Positions 5,199-54,788 of a stretch of 64,000 nucleotides of DNA are shown here, one piece after another. The notes below the pieces were generated by a model. That model saw only the letters and a program-made list of their open reading frames with translations. It was not told where the DNA came from and searched no databases. Position 1 is the stretch's first letter; each line of letters opens with the position of its first letter. The stretch covers positions 27,962-91,961 of the forward strand of contig CAYZNW010000004.1 of assembly GCA_964480345.1 (NCBI GenBank), in the 5' to 3' direction. The stretch comes from an uncultured Candidatus Saccharibacteria bacterium (GTDB taxonomy: Bacteria > Patescibacteriota > Dojkabacteria > SC72). Both the position numbers and the translations under genes were made by a program.

Positions 5199-6422
5199 CT
5201 ATCTCAAATATCCAATAATCTCTTTCAAGGTAGGACGCCTATTGTACATTAGACAGCCCAATTCAAACAATTTCATTGAGACAAAGAGAGCAAGAAGTAC
5301 ATACAGTATTGACATGACTATACCTAAAGTTAATTCTTCTGGTGAGAGTTTTCCAAATGAATTTCGTAATAACAAGGTCATAAATGATGTAAATGGGAAG
5401 TAACTAAAGATTTTTGCTAACAAAGAATCAGGTTGAGTCATGAGTGTTTGTAATAGATAGGTTGGGAAGATAGAGAGGATAATAAATACTGAGGAGAGAT
5501 TCCTACTATCCTCAGCTCCTGCTCCAACTGCACCTACACCAATCATTACTGCTGCAAAGAAGATAAAGCCTGTTACAGTTAAGAACACATTTAATGGAAG
5601 TAAACTCCAATCTATATTATGTAAATTAATATTAAACGGTAGGGTGAGATCAAAGTAGTTATTAATTCCGAAGTATGCAATTAATCCTAATCCTACCCAT
5701 GCTAATAGCTGAGTCATAGCAACACCAATTAATCCAATCATTTTTCCCATCATTAAAGATCTCTTATCTACCATGGATAGCATTGTCTCAATCATACGAT
5801 TCTCTTTCTCTGATGATACACTATCAAGCATAAATGAAGAGGAGATGAATACTGCAAGGAAGAATATCACCAAAGATAGTACAGGTAATATATACTCTTC
5901 AAAACCAAACGGTTTCAAATTTCCTTCTGCATCATATACATGAATAGTAGAAGAGTACGGCCCAGTAACCATTTTACTTACACTCTCATCAGAGATACTA
6001 CTTAATGCGACACCTTTGAACATAGATTCAGCTACAGTAGTTGCCATTGCATTTGTAAACATACCACCCTCATTGCTGAAAAACACTTCATATTTAAGAT
6101 CTGATTTAAAGGTGGAAGGGACATATATAATTAATGACTTTGTATCTTTAATTATCTCTTCCTTAACTATATCTACTGTAGAAGCCTTTATGATAGGCTC
6201 AACATACATAGCATCAGGAAACAAACCAGCATCATCTACAACATATATTTTGTTGAAAGCACTTCTGTCTTCCATCTTCTTTGTACTATCTGCGGCAGAG
6301 TATCCAGAAATGAACATTATTAATCCCATGAATACAGGGAAAAACAGAGTAGAGAACCAGAATGATTTCTTTCTAACTACCTTTAAATATTCAAATCTAG
6401 CAACAACTAAAAATTTTCTCAT
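5199..6422 (-). CDS. ABC-2 family transporter permease
   Basis: About six predicted TM segments in the C-terminal half. Start overlaps the upstream ATPase stop by 4 nt (operon). Confidence 0.7.
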   Translation of the reverse strand: MRKFLVVARFEYLKVVRKKSFWFSTLFFPVFMGLIMFISGYSAADSTKKMEDRSAFNKIYVVDDAGLFPDAMYVEPIIKASTVDIVKEEIIKDTKSLIIYVPSTFKSDLKYEVFFSNEGGMFTNAMATTVAESMFKGVALSSISDESVSKMVTGPYSSTIHVYDAEGNLKPFGFEEYILPVLSLVIFFLAVFISSSFMLDSVSSEKENRMIETMLSMVDKRSLMMGKMIGLIGVAMTQLLAWVGLGLIAYFGINNYFDLTLPFNINLHNIDWSLLPLNVFLTVTGFIFFAAVMIGVGAVGAGAEDSRNLSSVFIILSIFPTYLLQTLMTQPDSLLAKIFSYFPFTSFMTLLLRNSFGKLSPEELTLGIVMSILYVLLALFVSMKLFELGCLMYNRRPTLKEIIGYLR

Positions 6423-10434: not shown

Positions 10435-10466
10435 CTATTACTTAAATTTATACTCTGCCCAATAAA

Positions 10467-11654
10467 ATGAATAAGAGAAAAACAATATTCATACCAATAC
10501 TCTCTCTGTTTACACTCATATTAATCTCTTCTACTGTACTAGCACAAGAGACTAAAGTTTCTGATGTACTAGGAGAAAATCCAGCTCAACCGGCTACTAC
10601 AGAGCAATTAGATCAGAAAGAAGCTCAACGAGAGACTGATTTTCTTAATCAGTTACTTTTAGAGATACCTGCAGAGACTGACAATCCTAGCTATACATTA
10701 ACCTTTACAGATCCATCATCTGACAAAAAAGGAGTCCAATTAGAAATAGATTCAAAATCTTACCAGGATATTAAAAGTCCATACTCTCTACCTGCCTTAA
10801 GTATTGGTAAACATACTCTTAAATTCAAATTTGCAGACAAATACAATACCACACAAATATTAGAGAAGGAGATTATAATACTTCCAAGACCTCCAATCAT
10901 TAGTACACCTAATATTTTAGAGAACAAATTAGTTTTAACAGGAACTGGCTTAGCTAACTCGGATTTAACATTAATCCTAGCATCAGATGATAGGATGGTA
11001 GTGAAAGAAGCTGCAGTAGATGCTGATGGTAAATGGAGTATATCCATAGAAGAGAATATACCTTCTGGAGTTTACTCTTTCATAGCATATTTAAGAAAAT
11101 ACGGCTTCTCTAGTAACTTATCACAACCAATTACTGCAAATATTGATAAAAACATAACCTCTGTAACAAGTAGTAATATTAATCAGAGTGAAGATATTCG
11201 TTTTGCTCTTAAAGATATTAAATTAGATAAACTCCCTGTTATTCTTTCAAGCAATCCAGATCTATTAGTAGTTATTTCAATAGGTTTTATACTTGGTATA
11301 ATCATCTCCTCGTTGATTTACGCTTTTTCTAAAGCAAGCAAAGAGAAAAAAGAGATTAAGAAGGTAGAGTGTATAGTAAAACCAAAAGAAGAAGATAGTA
11401 AGAAAGGGAAAACCCTTTTTGAAAAGCTTACTCAGGATATAGAGGAGAAGAAGGGTGAGGGGAATAAAGATAAAGGTAAGAAAGAGGAGGAAAAGATTGA
11501 TGATAAAAAGGATGTAAAGGAAGAGAAAAAACAAGAGAAACCTGAATTTCTATCTAAGATAGACTTCCTTAAAGACTTTAAGAAATTTGATCCTGATGAT
11601 GATAAAGGAAAAGAGAAAGATAACATCAAAGTATCATTAACATCTAAGGATTAA
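10467..11654 (+). CDS. Secreted single-pass membrane protein with an Ig-like ectodomain and a Lys/Glu-rich low-complexity cytoplasmic tail
   Basis: Signal peptide MNKRKTIFIPILSLFTLILISSTVLA|QE, a TM segment LLVVISIGFILGIIISSLIYAF, and a C-terminal KKGEGNKDKGKKEEEKIDDKKDVKEEKKQEK tail. Confidence 0.55.
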   Translation: MNKRKTIFIPILSLFTLILISSTVLAQETKVSDVLGENPAQPATTEQLDQKEAQRETDFLNQLLLEIPAETDNPSYTLTFTDPSSDKKGVQLEIDSKSYQDIKSPYSLPALSIGKHTLKFKFADKYNTTQILEKEIIILPRPPIISTPNILENKLVLTGTGLANSDLTLILASDDRMVVKEAAVDADGKWSISIEENIPSGVYSFIAYLRKYGFSSNLSQPITANIDKNITSVTSSNINQSEDIRFALKDIKLDKLPVILSSNPDLLVVISIGFILGIIISSLIYAFSKASKEKKEIKKVECIVKPKEEDSKKGKTLFEKLTQDIEEKKGEGNKDKGKKEEEKIDDKKDVKEEKKQEKPEFLSKIDFLKDFKKFDPDDDKGKEKDNIKVSLTSKD

Positions 11655-47302: not shown

Positions 47303-49792
47303 ATGAAAATAACTACGAACTTACTAAAACAATTTGGCGATATTAATGTCTCAGATGAAGAGATTATTAGATTAACTAAAGAACATATTGCAGAAGTAGA
47401 GGAGCAACACAATCTAAAGGCTGATTATGAAAATATAATCATTGCAGAGATAACAAGCAAAGAAATACATCCTGATTCAGATAAGCTTGGAATATATAAA
47501 TTAACCACAGATGGAAGTAATCAAATACAGGTAGTTGCAGGAGATAGAAATTTACAAATAGGGGATAAGGTAGCATATATCCAACCAGGAGCCATAGTTC
47601 CATATTCTATTTACACAGAAGAAGAGCCTATTACAATTAAGAGTGTAAAATTAAGAGGTGTAGATTCAAACGGTATGATGGGGTCAGAAAGAGAGTTGAA
47701 TATAGGAAGCAATCATATAGAAGTCTACAAATTACCTAAAGATGCTCCTGTAGGAGAATCTTTCTCAAAATATTTCAATTTGGAAGATACTGCATTCTCC
47801 ATAGAGAATAAAGGCTTAACAAATAGAGGAGATCTTTTTGGAGTGATTGGTCTTGCAAGGGAGTTAACAGCTATTACTGGTAATAAATTTACCTCTCCTG
47901 AGTCATATGTCGATCATGATAGTAACCTTAAACCAGAAACTAGCTGTTTAAATCTTCAAATTACAAATAATGCTGAAGTGCTTTGTCCAAGATATACAGC
48001 AATAGCTATAGATAATGTAAACATACAAGAATCTCCAGTAGAGTTTAAATCTACATTGATAAAATGCGGTATTAAACCAACAAACAATATAGTTGATATA
48101 ACAAACTATGTCTCTTTGATATTTGGACAACCTATGCATGCTTTTGATTATGACAAGGTTATTTCTAATGATAGAAGTACTACTAATACTGCAAATATAG
48201 AAATTAGATTAGCTAGAGAAGGTGAAAATATGTTAGGTTTGGATAACAAAGTACACGAGTTGAATAGTAGGACAGTTGTAATAGCAGATAGCACCCATCC
48301 AATAGCTATTGCAGGAGTAATTGGTGGTAAAGATACAGAAGTAGATTTCAATACCAGAAGAATAATATTTGAATCTGCTAATTTTGATAAAAATAGTATT
48401 AGAAAAACCTCGATGGAGTTAGGGGTATTCACGGATGCATGTACTAAATACAAACACTCTTTAGATACAGAGGTAACATTACCTGCTCTAAAGAAAGCAG
48501 TATCATTAGCGAAAGAGTTAGCTGGGGCTAAAGTTGCTTCCTCTATAGTCGATCTATATGAAATACCTTTTGATACAAACCAAACCATTAAGTTTGATAT
48601 TGATAATTTTAATACAATAGCAGGTATAGAAATAAGTCCAGAAGAGATAAAAAAGATTCTTGAGAATTTGGAGTATAAAGTTACAGAGAACGATGATAAT
48701 TCATTAATTGTATTTATTCCTTCATGGAGGAGAGATATTTCTATCAAAGAAGATCTGTACGAAGACATTATTAGAGTGTATGGATACAACAATATAGTTC
48801 CTATTCTTCCAAAGAAACAGATTAAACCTCCTGTAAAAAATGAGATATTTGAACTTAAGAAAGAGGTTCGAAATATATTAAGTAATAGAGGAGCTAATGA
48901 AATTGTAAGTTACAGTTTTACTGGTTTGAAGAATTTCCAAGAGTGTAATTTAAATCCTGATGAGGCTTTTAGAATTGCAAATCCTCTTTCACCTGAATTG
49001 TTTCTGATGAGAACAAGCATCTTGCAATCAGTTTTGCAAAAAGCAAAAGAGAATATATTACGATGTTTTGATAAATTTGTGTTATATGAGCAGGGAATTT
49101 CTCATCTAAGGAGTAGAATAGATGAGGGTAATGTTCCTGAAGAGGAGTGGATGCTTTCTACAGTTGTTACTGATATGAGAAAGGATGATTATGAAGGCTC
49201 GCCATATTATGAATCTAAGAAATATCTTGATGATTTACTGGAAAGTTTAAATTATCATAATGTTAAATATACTCTTGTAGCAGATATGGAAGAGGAGAAA
49301 TTGCCTGCAAGAATAAAGAATCTTCTTCCTATATTTGATCCTAATGTCTCAGCGATTGTATCTATGGGTATGGATTATTTCGGTATAGTAGGAGAGGTGA
49401 AAGAGAGTATTAAAGATACTTTCAAATTACCAAAGAACACATCTGCTTTTGAGATTTCATTATCTCATCTCATTACATTAGATAGGTCAATGAAATCATA
49501 TAGAGATATCCCTGTATATCCTCCTTTTTCAATAGATATGTGTTTTAAGGTAGATACTGCTATACTTTACTCTGATTTATATAACGAGATTAATTTTGTT
49601 GTAAATAAAGAGAATTACTATGGAAAAGTTGAATGTTTGGATATATATCAAGATAACGATGAGAAGAAAAAGATAACATTTAGAATATCAGTAAGTAATT
49701 ACAACAGTACATTTACTGAGAAACAAATTAATGAGATTAAGGAACAAATAATTAAAAAGCTATCAAAGAAATTCTTAGCTGAGGTTGTTTAA
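47303..49792 (+). CDS. pheT: Phenylalanyl-tRNA synthetase beta subunit
   Basis: 829 aa, starts 1 nt after the pheS stop. B3/4, B5 and FDX-ACB-like architecture inferred from length and context. Confidence 0.85.
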   Translation: MKITTNLLKQFGDINVSDEEIIRLTKEHIAEVEEQHNLKADYENIIIAEITSKEIHPDSDKLGIYKLTTDGSNQIQVVAGDRNLQIGDKVAYIQPGAIVPYSIYTEEEPITIKSVKLRGVDSNGMMGSERELNIGSNHIEVYKLPKDAPVGESFSKYFNLEDTAFSIENKGLTNRGDLFGVIGLARELTAITGNKFTSPESYVDHDSNLKPETSCLNLQITNNAEVLCPRYTAIAIDNVNIQESPVEFKSTLIKCGIKPTNNIVDITNYVSLIFGQPMHAFDYDKVISNDRSTTNTANIEIRLAREGENMLGLDNKVHELNSRTVVIADSTHPIAIAGVIGGKDTEVDFNTRRIIFESANFDKNSIRKTSMELGVFTDACTKYKHSLDTEVTLPALKKAVSLAKELAGAKVASSIVDLYEIPFDTNQTIKFDIDNFNTIAGIEISPEEIKKILENLEYKVTENDDNSLIVFIPSWRRDISIKEDLYEDIIRVYGYNNIVPILPKKQIKPPVKNEIFELKKEVRNILSNRGANEIVSYSFTGLKNFQECNLNPDEAFRIANPLSPELFLMRTSILQSVLQKAKENILRCFDKFVLYEQGISHLRSRIDEGNVPEEEWMLSTVVTDMRKDDYEGSPYYESKKYLDDLLESLNYHNVKYTLVADMEEEKLPARIKNLLPIFDPNVSAIVSMGMDYFGIVGEVKESIKDTFKLPKNTSAFEISLSHLITLDRSMKSYRDIPVYPPFSIDMCFKVDTAILYSDLYNEINFVVNKENYYGKVECLDIYQDNDEKKKITFRISVSNYNSTFTEKQINEIKEQIIKKLSKKFLAEVV

Positions 49793-52578
49793 TTGTTATT
49801 ACCATTTCCAGGTTTAGGTGTGATAGGGTCGGCAGGAGGAGTAACTGGTTCAGTTGCTACGGCTTTGACTGTGACAGAAGCAGTACCTATTTTTGCATGA
49901 TTATCTTTAGCTGTTACTACTATTTTAATATCTCCTGCTTTAGTGGTAGTAGGTACTGTGTAATGTATTACATATGAGCCATCAGCATTTAATGAAGCGG
50001 CAACATTTTTCCCATCAAAAGTAACTATGAACTCAGAAATACTTTCTAAGTATCTAACACTTCCTGTGATTTCCACCATCTGACCTATTTTTACTTCAGC
50101 TCCAGATGCCGGAGTCTTAATTTCTACTACAGGAGCATTATTTTCACCTAAAGGAAGCTGACATACTCCAGTTGCAGGATTATCAAATAGATAAACTGAA
50201 TCTGCAGGAGCAGTTAAATGTACTTTATATGCATCAAACTGTAAAGAATTTTCTAATTTTGTAGAAAGAAGGATTTTTGTCGTAACTAGTTCATACTTTC
50301 GAGCTGCATCAAGATTCGTAGGAATCAAATTATTAGCTTTACAAACTTCAATTACCTTTCTGTTATCAACCTGAGGAGCTTTACCAGCAATATATAAAGA
50401 AGCTTCTTTCGCACATTCTACTCCCTCAGCAGGAGTTGCACCTGTATCTGTACAAACCGATGTAGTCATAATACCTGCGGGCCTATTAAAAGCAAATTCA
50501 GAGTAGCTATCTATAACTCGCTTGAAGAAAGAGTTAGCCATAGCAAGAGAGATCGTAGAAGCCCAACCGTTAGGCATAATCTCTCCATTGTTATTACCGT
50601 TCCATGCCCCAACAACTAAGCTTTGATTGTACAAGAAGGCATCTAAGTCTTTAGGACCATCTGTTGTACCTGTCTTTCCACAAACTTTTTTACCATTAAT
50701 ATAGAAGTAATTATCTCCATACCTGTCATGGAATCCTTGGATATCACAAGCCATCCAGTTAATTAAATATGCTTCCTTTTCATCTATAACTCTAGTTCCT
50801 TCATTATCTTTATACTCTTTCAAAATATTCCCTTTGTTATCCTCCACTTTTAGAATAGATGTAACATCGTGTTTAACTCCACTGTTTGCCAATGTTGCAA
50901 ACGCACCAGCAAAGTCCAAAAGTTTCATCTCTGCCGAACCTAATCCTAAACTCAAACCGTAACTAGCTTTAGATACAATATCTACACCTAGTTTCTCCAT
51001 AAGCTGAATATACCCATCAATACCACCAAGCTGCAACATATATACGGCAGGAGTATTTCGAGAGAGAACAAGAGCTTTTCTTGCAGTCATTAAACCTTGA
51101 TTTTTTCCATCCCAGTTCTTAGGGTCATAGGTTCCAAATTTAATCTCAGCTATATCAGGAGCAAGTGTCCAAGGACCGTACCCTCTTGATATCGCATTAA
51201 GATACACAAAAGGCTTAACTGAAGAACCCATCTGTCTATCACTCGTCGTAATATTTACATTACCATCCACACGAGGATCCGAAGTATTCCAGTAATCTAC
51301 AGAACCAACCATAGCTAATATCTGACCGTTCTTTGGATTTAATACAATCATAGCTCCGTTATTTGCATTAAACCTTCTAGCAGCATCAACACTTTTAACA
51401 ACCTCTTCTTCTGCTATAGATTGCAAAGACGGATCAAGAGTAGTAGTAACTTTCAATCCTCCTCTTTCAACACGATCAATGCCAAACTCCTCTTCTAAAA
51501 GCTGTTTAACATAAAAGACAAAATGAGGAGCCTTAATATCAATCTTCTTTGTACTGTAAGTTAACTCTTCATCTCTTGCCGAAGCTATTTCATCTTTATT
51601 AATACCTGTAAGATTTTGATGCTTTTCCATTTGATCTAAAACATACTGCTTTCTTACCTCAGCCATCTCCGGTTTTGTTCCATACAAAGGAGAGTATATT
51701 CCAGGACTCTGAATCAAACCTGATATCAATGCACTCTCTGCAAGTGTAAGTTCACTTACATCTTTATTAAAATATGCATTAGCAGCAGCTTGGAAACCGT
51801 AATTAACTCCTCCAAGAGGCACTTCATTCATATACATCTGTAATATCTGATCTTTGGTAAATGTCTGTTCTACCTGCATAGTAATCAAAACCTCCTGTAT
51901 TTTCCTGGAGTATGTTTGTTTGTAGGCATCATCTCCAAGCACATCGTAGAGGATAGTGTTTTTTACCAACTGTTGAGTAACAGTACTGGCTCCTCTAACA
52001 ACTCTCTTATTTCTTAAGTTCTGAATAAAAGATTTGAGAATGCCTAAGTAATCCAATCCTTTATGCTGATAAAACTCAATATCTTCAGCAGCAAGCAGAG
52101 CCCATTTAGTATGATCAGGAATCTGATCTATTGGAACAAATTTCCTGTTGTGATCTTTATATACTGTGTAAAGTAAATTCCCATCTTTATCTAAAATCTG
52201 AGTACTCTGATCTGATACTCTATCAACAAGTTTATCTGGAGAGGGTAATGACTTCTGAATGTTTCTTAAATACAAACCAACCACTATTAATCCAACACAA
52301 CCAAGAAAGAATAAAACACCAATGAAAATATATACTACTTTCTTTGCCTTCTTTTTAAACTCAGCATTACCAAAAGGTCGTTTCGTTCCTACTTTCTTAA
52401 TATCTCCCTCCTTATTACTTCTTTTACTAATACCATTAGCACTATACTTCTTGAAATTTTTGTACCTATTTAATTCAGTAGGACCAAAAGATCTTGAAAG
52501 ATTTCGAATGGAATCCTTACTTCCAAACATCTTTTTTCGTCTATCGCTTATACCAAAACTGTACTTCATGGTTACCAT
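49789..52578 (-). CDS. Class A penicillin-binding protein (bifunctional GT51 transglycosylase/transpeptidase, PBP1A-like) with a basic N-terminal cytoplasmic extension and a C-terminal Ig-like/Pro-rich extension
   Basis: GT51 motifs ALLAAEDIEFYQHKGLD and RGASTVTQQLVKN. Transpeptidase SSVKPF (SxxK). The C-terminal 150 aa are beta-rich, ending in PVTPPADPITPKPGNGNNN. Confidence 0.85.
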   Translation of the reverse strand: MVTMKYSFGISDRRKKMFGSKDSIRNLSRSFGPTELNRYKNFKKYSANGISKRSNKEGDIKKVGTKRPFGNAEFKKKAKKVVYIFIGVLFFLGCVGLIVVGLYLRNIQKSLPSPDKLVDRVSDQSTQILDKDGNLLYTVYKDHNRKFVPIDQIPDHTKWALLAAEDIEFYQHKGLDYLGILKSFIQNLRNKRVVRGASTVTQQLVKNTILYDVLGDDAYKQTYSRKIQEVLITMQVEQTFTKDQILQMYMNEVPLGGVNYGFQAAANAYFNKDVSELTLAESALISGLIQSPGIYSPLYGTKPEMAEVRKQYVLDQMEKHQNLTGINKDEIASARDEELTYSTKKIDIKAPHFVFYVKQLLEEEFGIDRVERGGLKVTTTLDPSLQSIAEEEVVKSVDAARRFNANNGAMIVLNPKNGQILAMVGSVDYWNTSDPRVDGNVNITTSDRQMGSSVKPFVYLNAISRGYGPWTLAPDIAEIKFGTYDPKNWDGKNQGLMTARKALVLSRNTPAVYMLQLGGIDGYIQLMEKLGVDIVSKASYGLSLGLGSAEMKLLDFAGAFATLANSGVKHDVTSILKVEDNKGNILKEYKDNEGTRVIDEKEAYLINWMACDIQGFHDRYGDNYFYINGKKVCGKTGTTDGPKDLDAFLYNQSLVVGAWNGNNNGEIMPNGWASTISLAMANSFFKRVIDSYSEFAFNRPAGIMTTSVCTDTGATPAEGVECAKEASLYIAGKAPQVDNRKVIEVCKANNLIPTNLDAARKYELVTTKILLSTKLENSLQFDAYKVHLTAPADSVYLFDNPATGVCQLPLGENNAPVVEIKTPASGAEVKIGQMVEITGSVRYLESISEFIVTFDGKNVAASLNADGSYVIHYTVPTTTKAGDIKIVVTAKDNHAKIGTASVTVKAVATEPVTPPADPITPKPGNGNNN

Positions 52579-52621
52579 TATGCACCATTTATATTCTCAA
52601 ATCAATTCCTTACCCAACATA

Positions 52622-52641
52622 TGTCGGACCTAGGTCAGACA
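52622..52641. promoter_or_regulatory. 20-bp GC-rich imperfect palindrome TGTCGGACCTAGGTCAGACA (copy 1), a candidate operator in the PBP1A promoter / 5' UTR
   Basis: Perfect 10-bp core GACCTAGGTC. The same two mismatched positions as copy 2. 44 nt upstream of the PBP1A start codon. Confidence 0.5.
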
Positions 52642-52804
52642 CGTTGTAAGAACTTTTTCATCTACACCTTAACCTTAGTGCAATAGGTTTTTTCAGACTT
52701 CTTGTTTTTTTCTATTTTTCGACCAGTATATTTTTTACAAAACCAAAAGCAGCTAAGGGCCGTACTTTGAGATAAACTATTGTTATGAACTGTTTCTTAA
52801 AAGA

Positions 52805-52824
52805 GGTCGGACCTAGGTGCGACC
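52805..52824. promoter_or_regulatory. 20-bp GC-rich imperfect palindrome GGTCGGACCTAGGTGCGACC (copy 2), overlapping the -35 region of the hisS promoter
   Basis: Shares GTCGGACCTAGGT with copy 1. An extended -10 TGaTATAAT (52835..52843) lies just downstream. Confidence 0.5.
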
Positions 52825-52834
52825 TGTAAAGGCA

Positions 52835-52843
52835 TGATATAAT
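52835..52843 (+). promoter_or_regulatory. Extended -10 element TGaTATAAT for hisS
   Basis: TG at 52835..52836 and TATAAT at 52838..52843, a few nt upstream of the hisS start. Confidence 0.3.
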
Positions 52844-52849
52844 CGTTGT

Positions 52850-54151
52850 ATGGGAACAAGAATGAAAGCAACAACATTAAAAGGGTTTAAGGACTATTTC
52901 GCACAGGATGTGCAGATAAGAGAGTATATCAAGGATACTTTTAGGAATTTAGCTTTAAGTTATGGGTACGAGGGGCTTGAGACTCCTTCTTTAGAATACT
53001 CTGAATTGATACTAGGCATCAGTGGAGCGGAGGCAGAGAAGCTTTACTACCGATTTAAAGATCATGGAGATCGGGATGTAATGCTTAAGTATGAATTAAT
53101 GACATCTATGTGTCGAGCAGTCGCTCAAAATGTTAATGAAATACAAATGCCTTATAAGAGATATCAGATGCAGAATGTTTGGAGAGCAGATAATGTTCAA
53201 AAGGGACGACTTCGAGAGTTCACTCAGCTTGATATTGATACATTAGGTACAAATTCAAATTTCTCAGATGCAGAGATATTAGAGATAGGTTTAAGATTCC
53301 TGCAGAAGTTAGGATTTAAGAAATATGTAGCAAGAATTAGTAATCGAAAGATTCTACTAGGTATATTGGAGTATTTGGATATACCTGAATCATACTTTGA
53401 TGGTTTCTATATATCAGTAGATAAGTTGAAGAAGATAGGAGAAGAAGAGGTTAAATATGAATTAATTAATGTAAGAGGAATAGAGAGTAAAAAGGTAGAA
53501 CAGATAATGAAAATTTTAAAAACAAGGGAGCTGGAAGATTTAGAGAAAAGTATTGGTACAACAGAAACAGGAGGAGAAGGGGTTAATGAATTAAAAGAAA
53601 TACTATCTATTCTAAAAGAAACTGATCTTGATCCTTCTACATATCAGTTTGATATCACATTAGCTCGAGGTTTAGCTTCATATACTGGCCCTATTTGGGA
53701 ATATGAGATATTAGATAACAACATAGGTTCTGTTTCTGGTGGGGGAAGATATGACAAAATAATAGGAAGATATATAGGTTATGATATTTATGCTACTGGC
53801 GTATCTTTTGGGTTAGAGAGGTTACAAGAGATAATGAAAGATAATAATATGGTCAAAGACATCTCTACCACAACAGATGTGTTAGTAGTTCCTATGGAAA
53901 ATAAATATATTGAATACACTATCCAAATTGCACAAAAATTAAGAGAAAAAGGAATAAAGACTATGGTATATCCAGAAATTAAGAAATTAGGAAGTGTATT
54001 TAAATATGCAGATAAGAAAAATTTTCCGTGGGTAATAGTCATAGGTGAAGATGAAGTATCAAAGAAGTGTGTACAGTTAAAAAATATGAAAACACAGAAG
54101 CAATCGACTGTAATAGTAGAGGAAGCTGTAAAGTTAATTAATCAGAAGTAA
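52850..54151 (+). CDS. hisS: Histidyl-tRNA synthetase
   Basis: Class II motifs: LKGFKDYFAQD..., YRFKDHGDRDVMLKYELMTS, RYQMQNVWRADNVQKGRLREFTQLDIDTLG. C-terminal anticodon-binding domain. Confidence 0.9.
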   Translation: MGTRMKATTLKGFKDYFAQDVQIREYIKDTFRNLALSYGYEGLETPSLEYSELILGISGAEAEKLYYRFKDHGDRDVMLKYELMTSMCRAVAQNVNEIQMPYKRYQMQNVWRADNVQKGRLREFTQLDIDTLGTNSNFSDAEILEIGLRFLQKLGFKKYVARISNRKILLGILEYLDIPESYFDGFYISVDKLKKIGEEEVKYELINVRGIESKKVEQIMKILKTRELEDLEKSIGTTETGGEGVNELKEILSILKETDLDPSTYQFDITLARGLASYTGPIWEYEILDNNIGSVSGGGRYDKIIGRYIGYDIYATGVSFGLERLQEIMKDNNMVKDISTTTDVLVVPMENKYIEYTIQIAQKLREKGIKTMVYPEIKKLGSVFKYADKKNFPWVIVIGEDEVSKKCVQLKNMKTQKQSTVIVEEAVKLINQK

Positions 54152-54185: not shown

Positions 54186-54788
54186 ATGATATCTTCGTAC
54201 AAAAATATATATATTATTTCTACAGATAAACAATTCATTACTTCCATAAGAAAGAATATATACTGCGATACCCTGTCCAAAGAGAGTAATACCAAAATAG
54301 CACTGATAGATAGAAGGAAGGAATCAAATACTTCCATTTCATATATTGAAAAGGTAAGAGTATGTAGGAAGATACATATTATTAATAATCTGTCATACAA
54401 AAGAATTAACAAATTGCTAGATCACGGTACTGATTACATTATCTCAGATCCGATAAATGTTAATTTACTTAATGGAGTGATATCTAAATTTCAAGGGAGT
54501 AATGAATTTATTGAATATCACGGTCTGAAACTTTATTTGAAAGATTTAGTTTTAGAATACAAGCAGTGTAGAATAAATATTACAAAGATAGAGGCTTTAA
54601 TAATCAAAGCATTAATTTTTAATAAAGGTTTTTGTTCCTTGGAGAGATTATGCGAGTATGCAAGAAGAGATCTGACAAGCAATTACATACAGGTAATTGT
54701 AACAAGAATAAATAATAAAAGTAAATTAGCAACAGGGATTAAGATTATAAAAAACAGATACGGTTTAGGATACAGAATAGCAATTTAA
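54186..54788 (+). CDS. Atypical OmpR-family winged-helix DNA-binding protein with a degenerate, non-canonical N-terminal domain
   Basis: C-terminal trans_reg_C-like ITKIEALIIKALIFNKGFCSLERLCEYARRDL...IQVIVTRINNKSKLATGIKIIKNRYGLGYRIAI. The N-terminal 100 aa lack the canonical receiver acidic pocket. Confidence 0.5.
   Translation: MISSYKNIYIISTDKQFITSIRKNIYCDTLSKESNTKIALIDRRKESNTSISYIEKVRVCRKIHIINNLSYKRINKLLDHGTDYIISDPINVNLLNGVISKFQGSNEFIEYHGLKLYLKDLVLEYKQCRINITKIEALIIKALIFNKGFCSLERLCEYARRDLTSNYIQVIVTRINNKSKLATGIKIIKNRYGLGYRIAI

What the first reader, a model, noticed from the sequence alone, without database searches (positions are those of the whole stretch)
52622..52824. Pair of GC-rich 20-bp CCTAGG-centred palindromes bracketing the divergent class-A PBP / hisS promoter region
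TGTCGGACCTAGGTCAGACA (52622..52641) and GGTCGGACCTAGGTGCGACC (52805..52824) are imperfect palindromes. Both are built on GTCGGACCTAGGT. Their only symmetry breaks are at the same two mirrored positions (6 and 15 in both copies). They stand out as GC-rich islands in AT-rich intergenic DNA. Copy 2 overlaps the -35 region of the predicted hisS promoter (extended -10 at 52835..52843). Copy 1 lies in the promoter / 5' UTR of the PBP1A-like gene. This arrangement suggests operator sites for a dimeric transcription factor co-regulating a cell-wall synthase and hisS. Because each site is itself palindromic, the pair could alternatively be the termini of a small MITE-like insertion of about 200 bp.
Basis: seen in the sequence. 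Interest (0 to 1): 0.5.

Follow-up and report, generated by a model that had tools for sequence, protein, structure and literature searches.

The report
REP-doublet mobile element between PBP and hisS
The two palindromes are the ends of a roughly 200-bp non-coding mobile element (a REP doublet of the kind moved by RAYT tyrosine transposases) that sits between two core promoters in a tiny Dojkabacteria (CPR) genome; this is a known kind of element in a lineage where it seems not to have been described, not a regulator's operator pair.

Summary
The two 20-bp CCTAGG-centred palindromes are real and non-random. Two details were wrong. Copy 1 breaks symmetry at positions 5/16, not 6/15. It also lies upstream of the PBP -35 box, not in the 5' UTR.

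The palindromes are the termini of one 203-bp element (52622-52824). Each end is a roughly 40-bp terminal inverted repeat: the palindrome plus an inner flank (AAGAAnnTTTTCAT).

- Elements of 202-206 bp with the same ends occur at unrelated intergenic sites in two other Dojkabacteria genomes.
- The same palindromes, in inverted orientation, flank single RAYT-like Y1 (HUH) transposase genes in at least six related genomes.
- In one RAYT lineage the ORF ends at the TAG in the palindrome's centre. The doublets' inner flank is a relic of that 3' coding end.
- The orthologous PBP-hisS spacer carries the element in the closest relative (HisS 79% identical). It is empty in the next relatives (73%, 63% and 60%), whose core promoters are nevertheless conserved.
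- No target-site duplication was found.

Verdict: a REP doublet (REPIN-like, MITE-like) of a RAYT system.

This is a new member of a known kind, of modest interest. No RAYT lies in the 64-kb window, and I could not show one for this genome.

The parts
52622..52824 (.). Whole non-autonomous element (REP doublet, REPIN-like or MITE-like), 203 bp
   Evidence: An nhmmer profile of the elements matches 52623-52824 end to end (trained partly on it). It also finds an independent full-length copy in L048 (E = 8e-13). Elements of 205-206 bp with the same ends are at L007 5102-5307, L014 3752-3956 and L052 3376-3581. The element folds end to end as a long imperfect hairpin.
52622..52641 (.). REP palindrome 1 (TGTCGGACCTAGGTCAGACA), left terminus
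   Evidence: Symmetry break at positions 5/16.
52642..52661 (.). Inner flank of the left terminal inverted repeat (CGTTGTAAGAACTTTTTCAT)
   Evidence: It is inverted-complementary to 52785-52804 (I1). The same AAGAAnnTTTTCAT flank follows the REP in L007, L014, L052, L048 and the RAYT-flanking copies.
52662..52784 (.). Poorly conserved interior of the element
   Evidence: It is 36% identical to the orthologous element in L052, against 78-80% for the 40-nt ends. There is no Rfam match above noise.
52785..52804 (.). Inner flank of the right terminal inverted repeat (ATGAACTGTTTCTTAAAAGA); relic of the 3' coding end of a family-b RAYT gene
   Evidence: Compare L048 10422-10453, AGATGAAAAAGTTCTGAACGAG|GGGCAGACCTAG, where the RAYT ORF ends at the TAG in the REP centre.
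52805..52824 (.). REP palindrome 2 (GGTCGGACCTAGGTGCGACC), right terminus; occupies the -35 position of the hisS promoter
   Evidence: Symmetry break at positions 6/15.
52835..52843 (+). hisS extended -10 (TGATATAAT), 6 nt before the ATG at 52850; not part of the element. It is conserved in relatives without the element.
52577..52605 (-). Predicted PBP1A promoter (-35 TTGATT at 52605-52600, -10 CATAAT at 52582-52577); not part of the element. It is conserved in relatives without the element.

Best explanation
**What it is.** The two palindromes are REP-type (repetitive extragenic palindrome) sequences. They form the two ends of a single 203-bp non-autonomous element, a REP doublet (REPIN-like). 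Each end is a roughly 40-bp terminal inverted repeat made of the 20-bp palindrome plus about 20 nt of inner flank.

**Origin.** The element derives by internal deletion from a unit in which the same inverted repeats flank a RAYT-like Y1 (HUH) tyrosine transposase gene.

**History at this site.** It entered the PBP1A-hisS spacer in the common ancestor of this species and the L052 species. It landed between two pre-existing, back-to-back core promoters that probably drive leaderless transcripts.

**Mechanism (inferred, not shown).** This follows E. coli TnpA-REP and IS608. The REPs extrude as hairpins in single-stranded DNA. A RAYT encoded elsewhere in the genome binds them through the hairpin and its foot nucleotides. 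It then cuts and rejoins single strands through a 5'-phosphotyrosine intermediate, moving the doublet without target-site duplication.

**Local effect.** At this locus the element is probably a tolerated passenger. Its right REP now replaces whatever -35 sequence hisS once had, so hisS relies on its extended -10.
For: **1. Same architecture elsewhere.**
- Pairs of the palindrome 183-186 nt apart, with inverted inner flanks, occur at L007 5102/5288, L014 3752/3937 and L052 3376/3562.
- The interiors of these copies are 58-66% identical to one another (70-76% over whole elements).
- An independent copy in a third genome, L048 17921-18122, is found by profile at E = 8e-13.

**2. Transposase link.**
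- The palindromes flank, in inverted orientation, Y1_Tnp genes at L012 1913/2495, L049-51 9902/10483, L034 (a half-REP at about 126 and a full REP at 643), L042-44, L045-47, L048 and L057.
- These proteins hit Pfam PF01797 at 45 bits.
- Their best NCBIfam hit is 'REP-associated tyrosine transposase'.
- The best PDB hit is 4ER8, TnpA-REP (E = 4e-5).
- The HUH motif, the Tyr and the Asn four residues after it are all invariant.

**3. Co-variation.** In L048 both the RAYT-flanking REPs and the dispersed doublet carry the GGSCTGRCC/GGGCAGACC arm variant.

**4. Derivation.** The family-b RAYT ORF ends at the TAG of the REP centre. The doublets' inner flank matches that 3' end.

**5. Filled versus empty sites.**
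- The element is present at the orthologous site in L052, whose HisS is 79% identical.
- It is absent in L003/4 (73%), L005 (63%) and L045-47 (60%), where the spacers are about 95, 60 and 135 bp.

**6. Conservation pattern.** Between the window and L052 the ends are 78-80% identical and the interior 36%.

**7. No target-site duplication** at any of five doublets (sequences).

**8. Extragenic location.** All copies are extragenic.
Against: - No RAYT gene lies in the 64-kb window. The two sites that hold family-b RAYTs in relatives, mutS|PPDK and rsmD|SpoU, are empty here. I could not reach the rest of this genome, so a cognate transposase for this particular organism is not shown.
- Copy number is low. 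There is one doublet in 64 kb, and three doublets plus one RAYT unit were detected in the JBMNPD01/Ga0123335 species. Classical over-representation is therefore not demonstrated.
- All the RAYT-like proteins score below NCBIfam's curated cut-off (35-74 bits against 80).
- The classical unpaired GTAG tag is not present. Only '..AG' precedes the hairpin, and that AG can pair with a 3' CT.
- Transposition itself is inferred. Nothing here shows mobility directly.
Confidence: 0.85

Rival explanations
1. The palindromes are operator sites for a dimeric transcription factor that co-regulates the divergent PBP1A and hisS genes.
For: Each site is a near-perfect 20-bp palindrome, as expected for a dimer. 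Copy 2 covers the -35 position of hisS, and copy 1 lies just upstream of the PBP -35 box. The ends are kept at 78-80% identity at the orthologous site in L052 while the interior decays.
Against: The motif is missing from the same spacer in L003/4, L005 and L045-47, although both core promoters and the adjacent 200-aa protein are conserved there. There is no other copy at any promoter in the 64 kb. The same sequence forms the ends of roughly 205-bp units at unrelated loci and flanks transposase genes. The candidate wHTH protein has only an E = 0.086 Pfam hit.
Confidence: 0.04
2. It is a classical MITE derived from a DDE-transposase insertion sequence, with 40-bp terminal inverted repeats that happen to contain palindromes.
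For: The element is about 200 bp, has terminal inverted repeats of about 40 bp, has no ORF, is intergenic and has several copies.
Against: No target-site duplication flanks any of the five doublets. The only gene found between such ends is a Y1 HUH transposase, in at least six genomes. No DDE transposase with these ends turned up in about 365 kb of related sequence.
Confidence: 0.04
3. It is an exapted REP doublet. The element began as mobile DNA but is now kept for a host function at this locus. Possible functions are a structural or protein-binding site (as E. coli BIMEs bind IHF and gyrase) or an insulator between the two divergent promoters.
For: It is retained at the orthologous site in two species whose HisS proteins differ by 21%, with the ends conserved and the interior not. 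Three of the six dispersed doublets sit in divergent spacers, and REPs abut core promoters in the window, L052, L014 and L034.
Against: Conservation of the ends is equally expected from selection for recognition by the transposase, or from gene conversion among copies. The tiny intergenic spaces of these genomes force any tolerated insertion to lie next to promoters. Relatives do without the element.
Confidence: 0.07

Closest known systems
REPIN-RAYT systems (REP doublets forming hairpins plus a single-copy REP-associated tyrosine transposase; Bertels & Rainey 2011, PMC3116915; Bertels et al. 2017, PMC5581495)
   Same: Two short imperfect palindromes lie in inverted orientation around a short spacer. 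The whole unit can fold as a long hairpin. The copies are extragenic and have no ORF. The same palindromes flank a single Y1 transposase gene. The family-a RAYT sits at a fixed syntenic site (Lactamase_B_3 | RAYT | rpmE-prfA) across relatives (RF1 85% identical, RAYT 77%), which suggests vertical inheritance. A doublet persists at an orthologous site.
   Different: Copy number is a handful per genome rather than tens to hundreds. The spacer is longer (about 163 nt between palindromes; 46 nt in the CAZAJR01 type). There is no unpaired GTAG tag. The proteins fall below the NCBIfam RAYT cut-off. Family-b RAYTs occupy different sites in different genomes, which is more IS-like. The host is a CPR bacterium with a very small genome.
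E. coli REP/BIME and TnpA-REP (REPtron; Ton-Hoang et al. 2012; Messing et al. 2012, PMC3479197, PDB 4ER8)
   Same: The HUH motif, the catalytic Tyr and the Asn four residues after it align (H59/H61/Y115/N119 in E. coli; H60/H62/Y121/N125 here). The transposase gene is bracketed by inverted REPs. 'AG' lies at the 5' foot of the hairpin, where E. coli uses A3 and G4 of GTAG to select a CT cleavage site.
   Different: Sequence similarity is weak (E = 4e-5). The REP sequence is unrelated. The hairpin here is an almost perfect 9-11-bp stem around CTAG. No activity has been tested.
RAYT genes flanked by long terminal inverted repeats rather than GTAG REPs, with moderately abundant inverted-repeat families (Di Nocera et al. 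2013, PMC3733652)
   Same: The RAYT-like gene lies between roughly 40-bp terminal inverted repeats. There is a moderately abundant family of ORF-less derivatives of those repeats.
   Different: Here the inverted repeat itself begins with a REP-like 20-bp palindrome. The lineage (Dojkabacteria) is not among the phyla surveyed there, according to the abstract.
IS200/IS605 insertion sequences and their palindrome-associated derivatives (PATEs)
   Same: Both have a Y1 HUH transposase, hairpin-forming ends, no target-site duplication, and short ORF-less derivatives that keep both ends.
   Different: IS200/IS605 ends are asymmetric (distinct left and right ends, same-strand hairpins) and the elements are multi-copy. 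Here the ends are true inverted repeats and the transposase is single-copy in each contig examined.

Membership tests
REP / REPIN | Short (20-40 nt) imperfect palindrome able to form a stem-loop | tested here: met
   The palindromes are 20 nt long, with 9 of 10 pairs in each copy. Both are 60-70% G+C.
REP / REPIN | Extragenic location | tested here: met
   The window copy lies between divergent genes. All doublets in L007, L014, L033, L048 and L052 lie between ORFs.
REP / REPIN | Two REPs in inverted orientation separated by a short spacer, with the unit folding as one hairpin | tested here: met
   The inverted inner flanks give 39-nt arms. The minimum-free-energy fold pairs end with end: z = -2.5 in the window, -6.1 in L007 and -3.8 in L014.
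REP / REPIN | Repeated and over-represented within the genome | tested here: inconclusive
   There is only one doublet in the 64-kb window. The related JBMNPD01/Ga0123335 species has three doublets plus RAYT-flanking copies. The whole genome of the window organism was not available.
REP / REPIN | The same palindromes flank a RAYT gene in the same genome | tested here: inconclusive
   This is met in related genomes: L034 together with L007/L014/L052 in one species, L048, and L012 together with L011/L033. No RAYT lies in the window, and look-ups did not reach the rest of this genome.
REP / REPIN | Conserved unpaired 5' tag (GTAG or CGTC; PMC3733652) | tested here: not met
   The four bases 5' of the stem are ATAT, AGAG, TGAG, GGAG, ATAG, CGAG or TTAG. 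Only the trailing AG recurs, and it can pair with a 3' CT.
RAYT (REP-associated tyrosine transposase) | [quoted passage not shown] | tested here: met
   PF01797 scores 45.2 bits against a cut-off of 23. H60, H62, Y121 and N125 are invariant in 7 sequences and align to H59, H61, Y115 and N119 of 4ER8.
RAYT (REP-associated tyrosine transposase) | Score above the curated NCBIfam NF047646 cut-off (80 bits) | tested here: not met
   Scores are 74.3, 72.9, 63.5, 48.6, 44.0, 35.9 and 35.4 bits. It is the best family hit in every case.
RAYT (REP-associated tyrosine transposase) | Single copy, syntenic, vertically inherited | tested here: inconclusive
   Family a lies at the same site in L012 and L049-51, with RF1 85% and RAYT 77% identical. 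Family b lies at three different sites. Copy number per complete genome was not measured.
DDE-type MITE | Target-site duplication flanking the terminal inverted repeats | tested here: not met
   No direct repeat flanks any doublet: window ACATA|TGTAA, L052 TTGCA|TTTCA, L007 TTGA|TCAA (inverted), L048 CATGA|TGTTA.
Transcription-factor operator | Conserved at orthologous promoters and/or present at other promoters of a regulon | tested here: not met
   Absent in L003/4, L005 and L045-47. No other site in the window.

The most novel reading that the evidence does not exclude
Dojkabacteria (CPR/Patescibacteria) carry an ancient, very low-copy REPIN-RAYT system. Its CCTAGG-centred REP core is shared by two RAYT lineages that are only 35-39% identical. 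Its doublets persist for long periods at orthologous promoter-proximal sites. The doublet at PBP1A-hisS has been co-opted as part of the promoter architecture: it supplies the -35 region of hisS and separates two back-to-back promoters that probably drive leaderless transcripts. If so, it would be a case of REPIN domestication in a minimal genome.
Probability: 0.1. Interest if true: 0.6.

Novelty: new member of a known kind. Interest (0 to 1): 0.35.

Why it matters
The result removes a tempting but false regulatory annotation, a shared operator for a cell-wall synthase and hisS.

It also shows that REP/RAYT-type elements exist and persist in the extremely compact genomes of CPR bacteria, where almost no intergenic space is available. 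In the paper library searched, no paper combined RAYT or REPIN with Patescibacteria or Dojkabacteria.

Several features make this a compact natural system for asking how REPIN-RAYT pairs arise from IS200-like elements and why they are retained. Copy number is low. Filled and empty orthologous sites are clear. Two RAYT lineages share one REP core. In one lineage the RAYT ORF terminates inside its own REP.

For annotation, the element explains the unusually long PBP-hisS spacer. It also supports corrected start codons: hisS at 52850 and PBP at 52569.

Tried and rejected
- **Known RNA families.** Rfam at gathering thresholds found only four tRNAs in the window. At E up to 10 the spacer gave only noise. 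The interior is not conserved between orthologous copies (36%), so I rejected a small-RNA gene.
- **Intrinsic terminator.** None was predicted, and the element lies between divergent genes.
- **Restriction-site avoidance or enrichment of CCTAGG.** 7 found against 8.25 expected, so there is no signal.
- **RAYT in the window.** tblastn found nothing.
- **RAYT of the same organism through homologue look-ups.** P0202 and P0197 came from other assemblies and samples. The exact-protein look-up of the 433-aa HisS found nothing because databases annotate the 429-aa form.
- **Viral contigs.** There were 0 matches to GGTCNGACCTAGGTCNGACC, so there is no sign of a phage vector.
- **High-GC hits in the genome scan.** 30 of the 36 loci are from other, mostly high-GC genomes (38-72% G+C). 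I treated them as chance matches.
- **Exact insertion point and target motif.** The spacers are too diverged to define these. ACCTGTA-like strings near the right junction in the window, L003 and L045 may be chance, and I did not pursue them.
- **Orientation of the window element.** It could not be decided relative to the A and B ends of the JBMNPD01 copies.

Full report
**Observation**

They share GTCGGACCTAGGT exactly.
- At up to 2 mismatches the 13-mer matches only these two sites (4 strand-matches, 0.34 expected). None of 100 shuffles reached that number.
- They are the only GC-rich 18-bp palindromes in the 64 kb and the only matches to the 20-mer consensus at up to 4 mismatches.
- CCTAGG itself is not enriched.

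Two details were wrong.
- Copy 1 breaks symmetry at positions 5/16 and copy 2 at 6/15.
- Copy 1 is not in the PBP promoter or 5' UTR.

**Setting**

HisS homologues place the window in Candidatus Dojkabacteria, a lineage of the CPR/Patescibacteria. G+C is about 33%. The gene order pheT, PBP1A (minus strand), hisS (plus), a 200-aa protein, mutS (minus) is conserved in relatives.

Both flanking genes appear to have promoters pressed against their start codons.
- hisS has TGATATAAT at 52835-52843, 6 nt before the ATG at 52850.
- PBP has -35 TTGATT (52605-52600) and -10 CATAAT (52582-52577), 7 nt before the conserved start MKYSFG at 52569.
- The same arrangement is seen in L003, L005 and L052.

Copy 2 therefore covers about -45 to -26 of hisS. 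Copy 1 lies at about -53 to -72 of PBP.

**Filled and empty orthologous sites**

The PBP-hisS spacer is about 280 bp here. It is about 95 bp in L003/L004 (HisS 73% identical), about 60 bp in L005 (63%) and about 135 bp in L045-47 (60%). None of those carries the palindrome, although both core promoters are recognisable.

A metagenome scan for the palindrome plus its inner flank returned three contigs from one sample. One of them, L052, is the same locus in the closest relative found (HisS 79.4% identical). It carries a 206-bp element with the same ends at the same place.

HisS identities fit the grouping ((window, L052), L003). One gain in the ancestor of the first two is therefore the simplest history.

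Between the window and L052 the 40-nt ends are 78-80% identical and the interior only 36%.

**The element recurs elsewhere**

A scan of one genome per species for GTCGGACCTAGGTNNGAC gave 36 loci.
- 30 were from other, mostly high-GC genomes and are taken as chance matches.
- Six came from two low-GC CPR MAGs, with three contigs each.

Relaxed matching shows that in the Dojkabacteria MAG JBMNPD01 the palindromes again come in pairs 185-186 nt apart (L007 5102/5288; L014 3752/3937). They have the same inverted inner flanks: REP, six variable bases, AAGAAnnTTTTCAT, then the interior, then ATGAAAnnnTTCTT, six variable bases, REP.
- Those copies and L052 are 70-76% identical over the whole element. 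The metagenome contigs L053 and L054 are the same loci as L014 and L007.
- A profile built from these elements finds a further full-length copy in a third genome, L048 17921-18122 (E = 8e-13). It finds nothing else in the window.
- In the MAG CAZAJR01 the pairs are 65-66 nt apart (L011, L033).
- All copies lie between ORFs.
- The elements fold end to end as long imperfect hairpins.
- None of the five roughly 205-bp doublets has a flanking direct repeat.

**Link to a transposase**

In L012 the two palindromes (1913 and 2495) bracket a 144-aa ORF.
- It hits Pfam Y1_Tnp (PF01797) at 45 bits.
- Its best NCBIfam hit is 'REP-associated tyrosine transposase', at 74.3 bits against a cut-off of 80.
- Its only PDB hit is E. 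coli TnpA-REP, 4ER8 (E = 4e-5).

Homologues fall into two lineages.
- **Family a** (144 aa) sits at a fixed site, Lactamase_B_3 | RAYT | rpmE-prfA. It is flanked by GGCCGGACCTAGGTCCGACC and GGTCGGACCTAGGTCCGGCC (L049-51).
- **Family b** (about 150 aa, 35-39% identical to family a) is found next to a full REP in L034 of the JBMNPD01 species. It is also found between mutS and PPDK in L045-47, between rsmD and SpoU in L042-44 and L048, and in L057. It is always between inverted REP variants.

The HUH histidines, a Tyr and the Asn four residues later are invariant. They align with H59, H61, Y115 and N119 of TnpA-REP.

In L048 the RAYT-flanking REPs and the dispersed doublet share the same arm variant.

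In family b the ORF ends at the TAG in the centre of the downstream REP. Its last codons (GATGAAAAAGTTCTGAACGAG) are the sequence preserved as the inner flank of the doublets, including the window's ATGAACTGTTTCTTAAAAGAG. The doublet is therefore an internally deleted derivative of a unit made of inverted repeat, RAYT, inverted repeat.

**Mechanism: what is shown and what is inferred**

Shown:
- the anatomy;
- recurrence at other sites;
- flanking of RAYT-like genes;
- filled and empty orthologous sites;
- absence of target-site duplications.

Inferred from E. coli TnpA-REP and IS608 (PMC3479197):
- the REPs act as hairpins in single-stranded DNA;
- a RAYT encoded elsewhere in this genome binds them and catalyses single-strand cleavage and strand transfer through a phosphotyrosine intermediate.

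The recurring AG at the 5' foot and CT at the 3' foot recall the A3-G4/CT rule of TnpA-REP. However, they also simply extend the stem, so this is only a lead.

Not shown: a RAYT in this organism. None lies in the window. The two family-b sites used in relatives are empty here, and look-ups did not reach the rest of the genome.

**Rival explanations**
- **Operator.** Disfavoured because the site is absent from orthologous promoters and from all other promoters in the window, and because it sits at transposase flanks. The proposed wHTH protein has only an E = 0.086 Trans_reg_C hit and is conserved regardless of the palindromes.
- **DDE-type MITE.** Disfavoured by the lack of target-site duplications and by the Y1 gene found between identical ends.
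- **Small-RNA gene or terminator.** Rejected.
- **Exaptation at this locus.** It cannot be excluded. The ends are conserved at an orthologous site, and REPs abut core promoters in the window, L052, L014 and L034. Constraint from the transposase, and the shortage of intergenic space, explain this equally well.

**Comparison with known systems**

The closest match is the REPIN-RAYT system (PMC3116915, PMC5581495). More specifically it resembles the class of RAYT genes flanked by long terminal inverted repeats that have moderately abundant derivative families (PMC3733652).

Differences from the classical systems:
- very low copy number;
- no unpaired GTAG tag;
- proteins below the NCBIfam cut-off;
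- a longer spacer;
- a CPR host.

No paper in the searched library combines RAYT or REPIN with Patescibacteria or Dojkabacteria. JGI annotation already names some of these proteins 'REP element-mobilizing transposase RayT'.

**Verdict**

The operator interpretation is not supported. The MITE-like alternative is right in substance and can be sharpened to a REP doublet of a RAYT-like Y1 transposase system. It is a new member of a known kind, of modest interest.

Noticed in passing
window 9955, 28262, 31151, 40270, 52850, 60004 (gene starts); also 49789-52569 (minus strand): Many genes have TGnTATAAT or a close variant ending 5-8 nt before the start codon and have no Shine-Dalgarno motif (13 of 45 ORFs by a loose rule). 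Leaderless mRNAs may be common in this Dojkabacteria genome.
   Followed up: partly
window 52850/52862 and 52569/52578: The start codons are probably mis-set in public annotation. The hisS start at 52850 is supported by L052 and L003, whereas the database protein P0001 starts at 52862. The PBP start at 52569 (MKYSFG, conserved in L003, L005 and L052) is more likely than 52578, which overlaps the -10 box.
   Followed up: partly
L048 10422-10453; L042 about 10445-10477; L057 about 1220-1252: Family-b RAYT ORFs terminate at the TAG in the CTAG centre of their downstream REP, so the transposase gene overlaps its own recognition palindrome.
   Followed up: partly
window 52622-52641 and all REP copies: The 20-mer is two 9-nt sub-palindromes, GGTCNGACC, joined by TA. 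It is therefore a direct repeat and an inverted repeat at once. L034 126-135 keeps only one such unit next to the RAYT stop codon.
   Followed up: no
L048 17885-17939: There is a tandem duplication (35-nt period) of the left REP of the doublet: CAACATGAGGCCTGGCCTAGGTCTGCCCCCGATTA occurs twice.
   Followed up: no
L055/L056 9841-10345: The RAYT is truncated or frameshifted (114 aa called). It is preceded by two REP variants, AGGCCTNNCCTAGGCCTNGCCT, each with the inner flank. This may be a decaying unit.
   Followed up: no
L011, L012, L033 (MAG CAZAJR01): This MAG is labelled 'uncultured Candidatus Saccharibacteria'. However, it has the same Lactamase_B_3 | RAYT | rpmE-prfA synteny as contig L049, with RF1 85% identical, and its RAYT family is named Dojkabacteria by NCBI. 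The label looks doubtful.
   Followed up: partly
window 54186-54788: This 200-aa protein is conserved downstream of hisS in all relatives. It has no Pfam family, only a sub-threshold Trans_reg_C (OmpR-type wHTH) hit over residues 130-198 (E = 0.086).
   Followed up: partly
window 52824-52830; L003 about 2684-2690; L045 about 5258-5268: ACCTGTA- or GTCTGTAAAG-like strings recur at or near the right junction in both the filled and the empty spacers. They could be a target motif, a relic or chance.
   Followed up: no
L005 5319-5437: A run of N (an assembly gap with duplicated flanks) lies inside the PBP gene of that MAG. It explains the apparently long 'intergenic' gap in its gene calls.
   Followed up: yes
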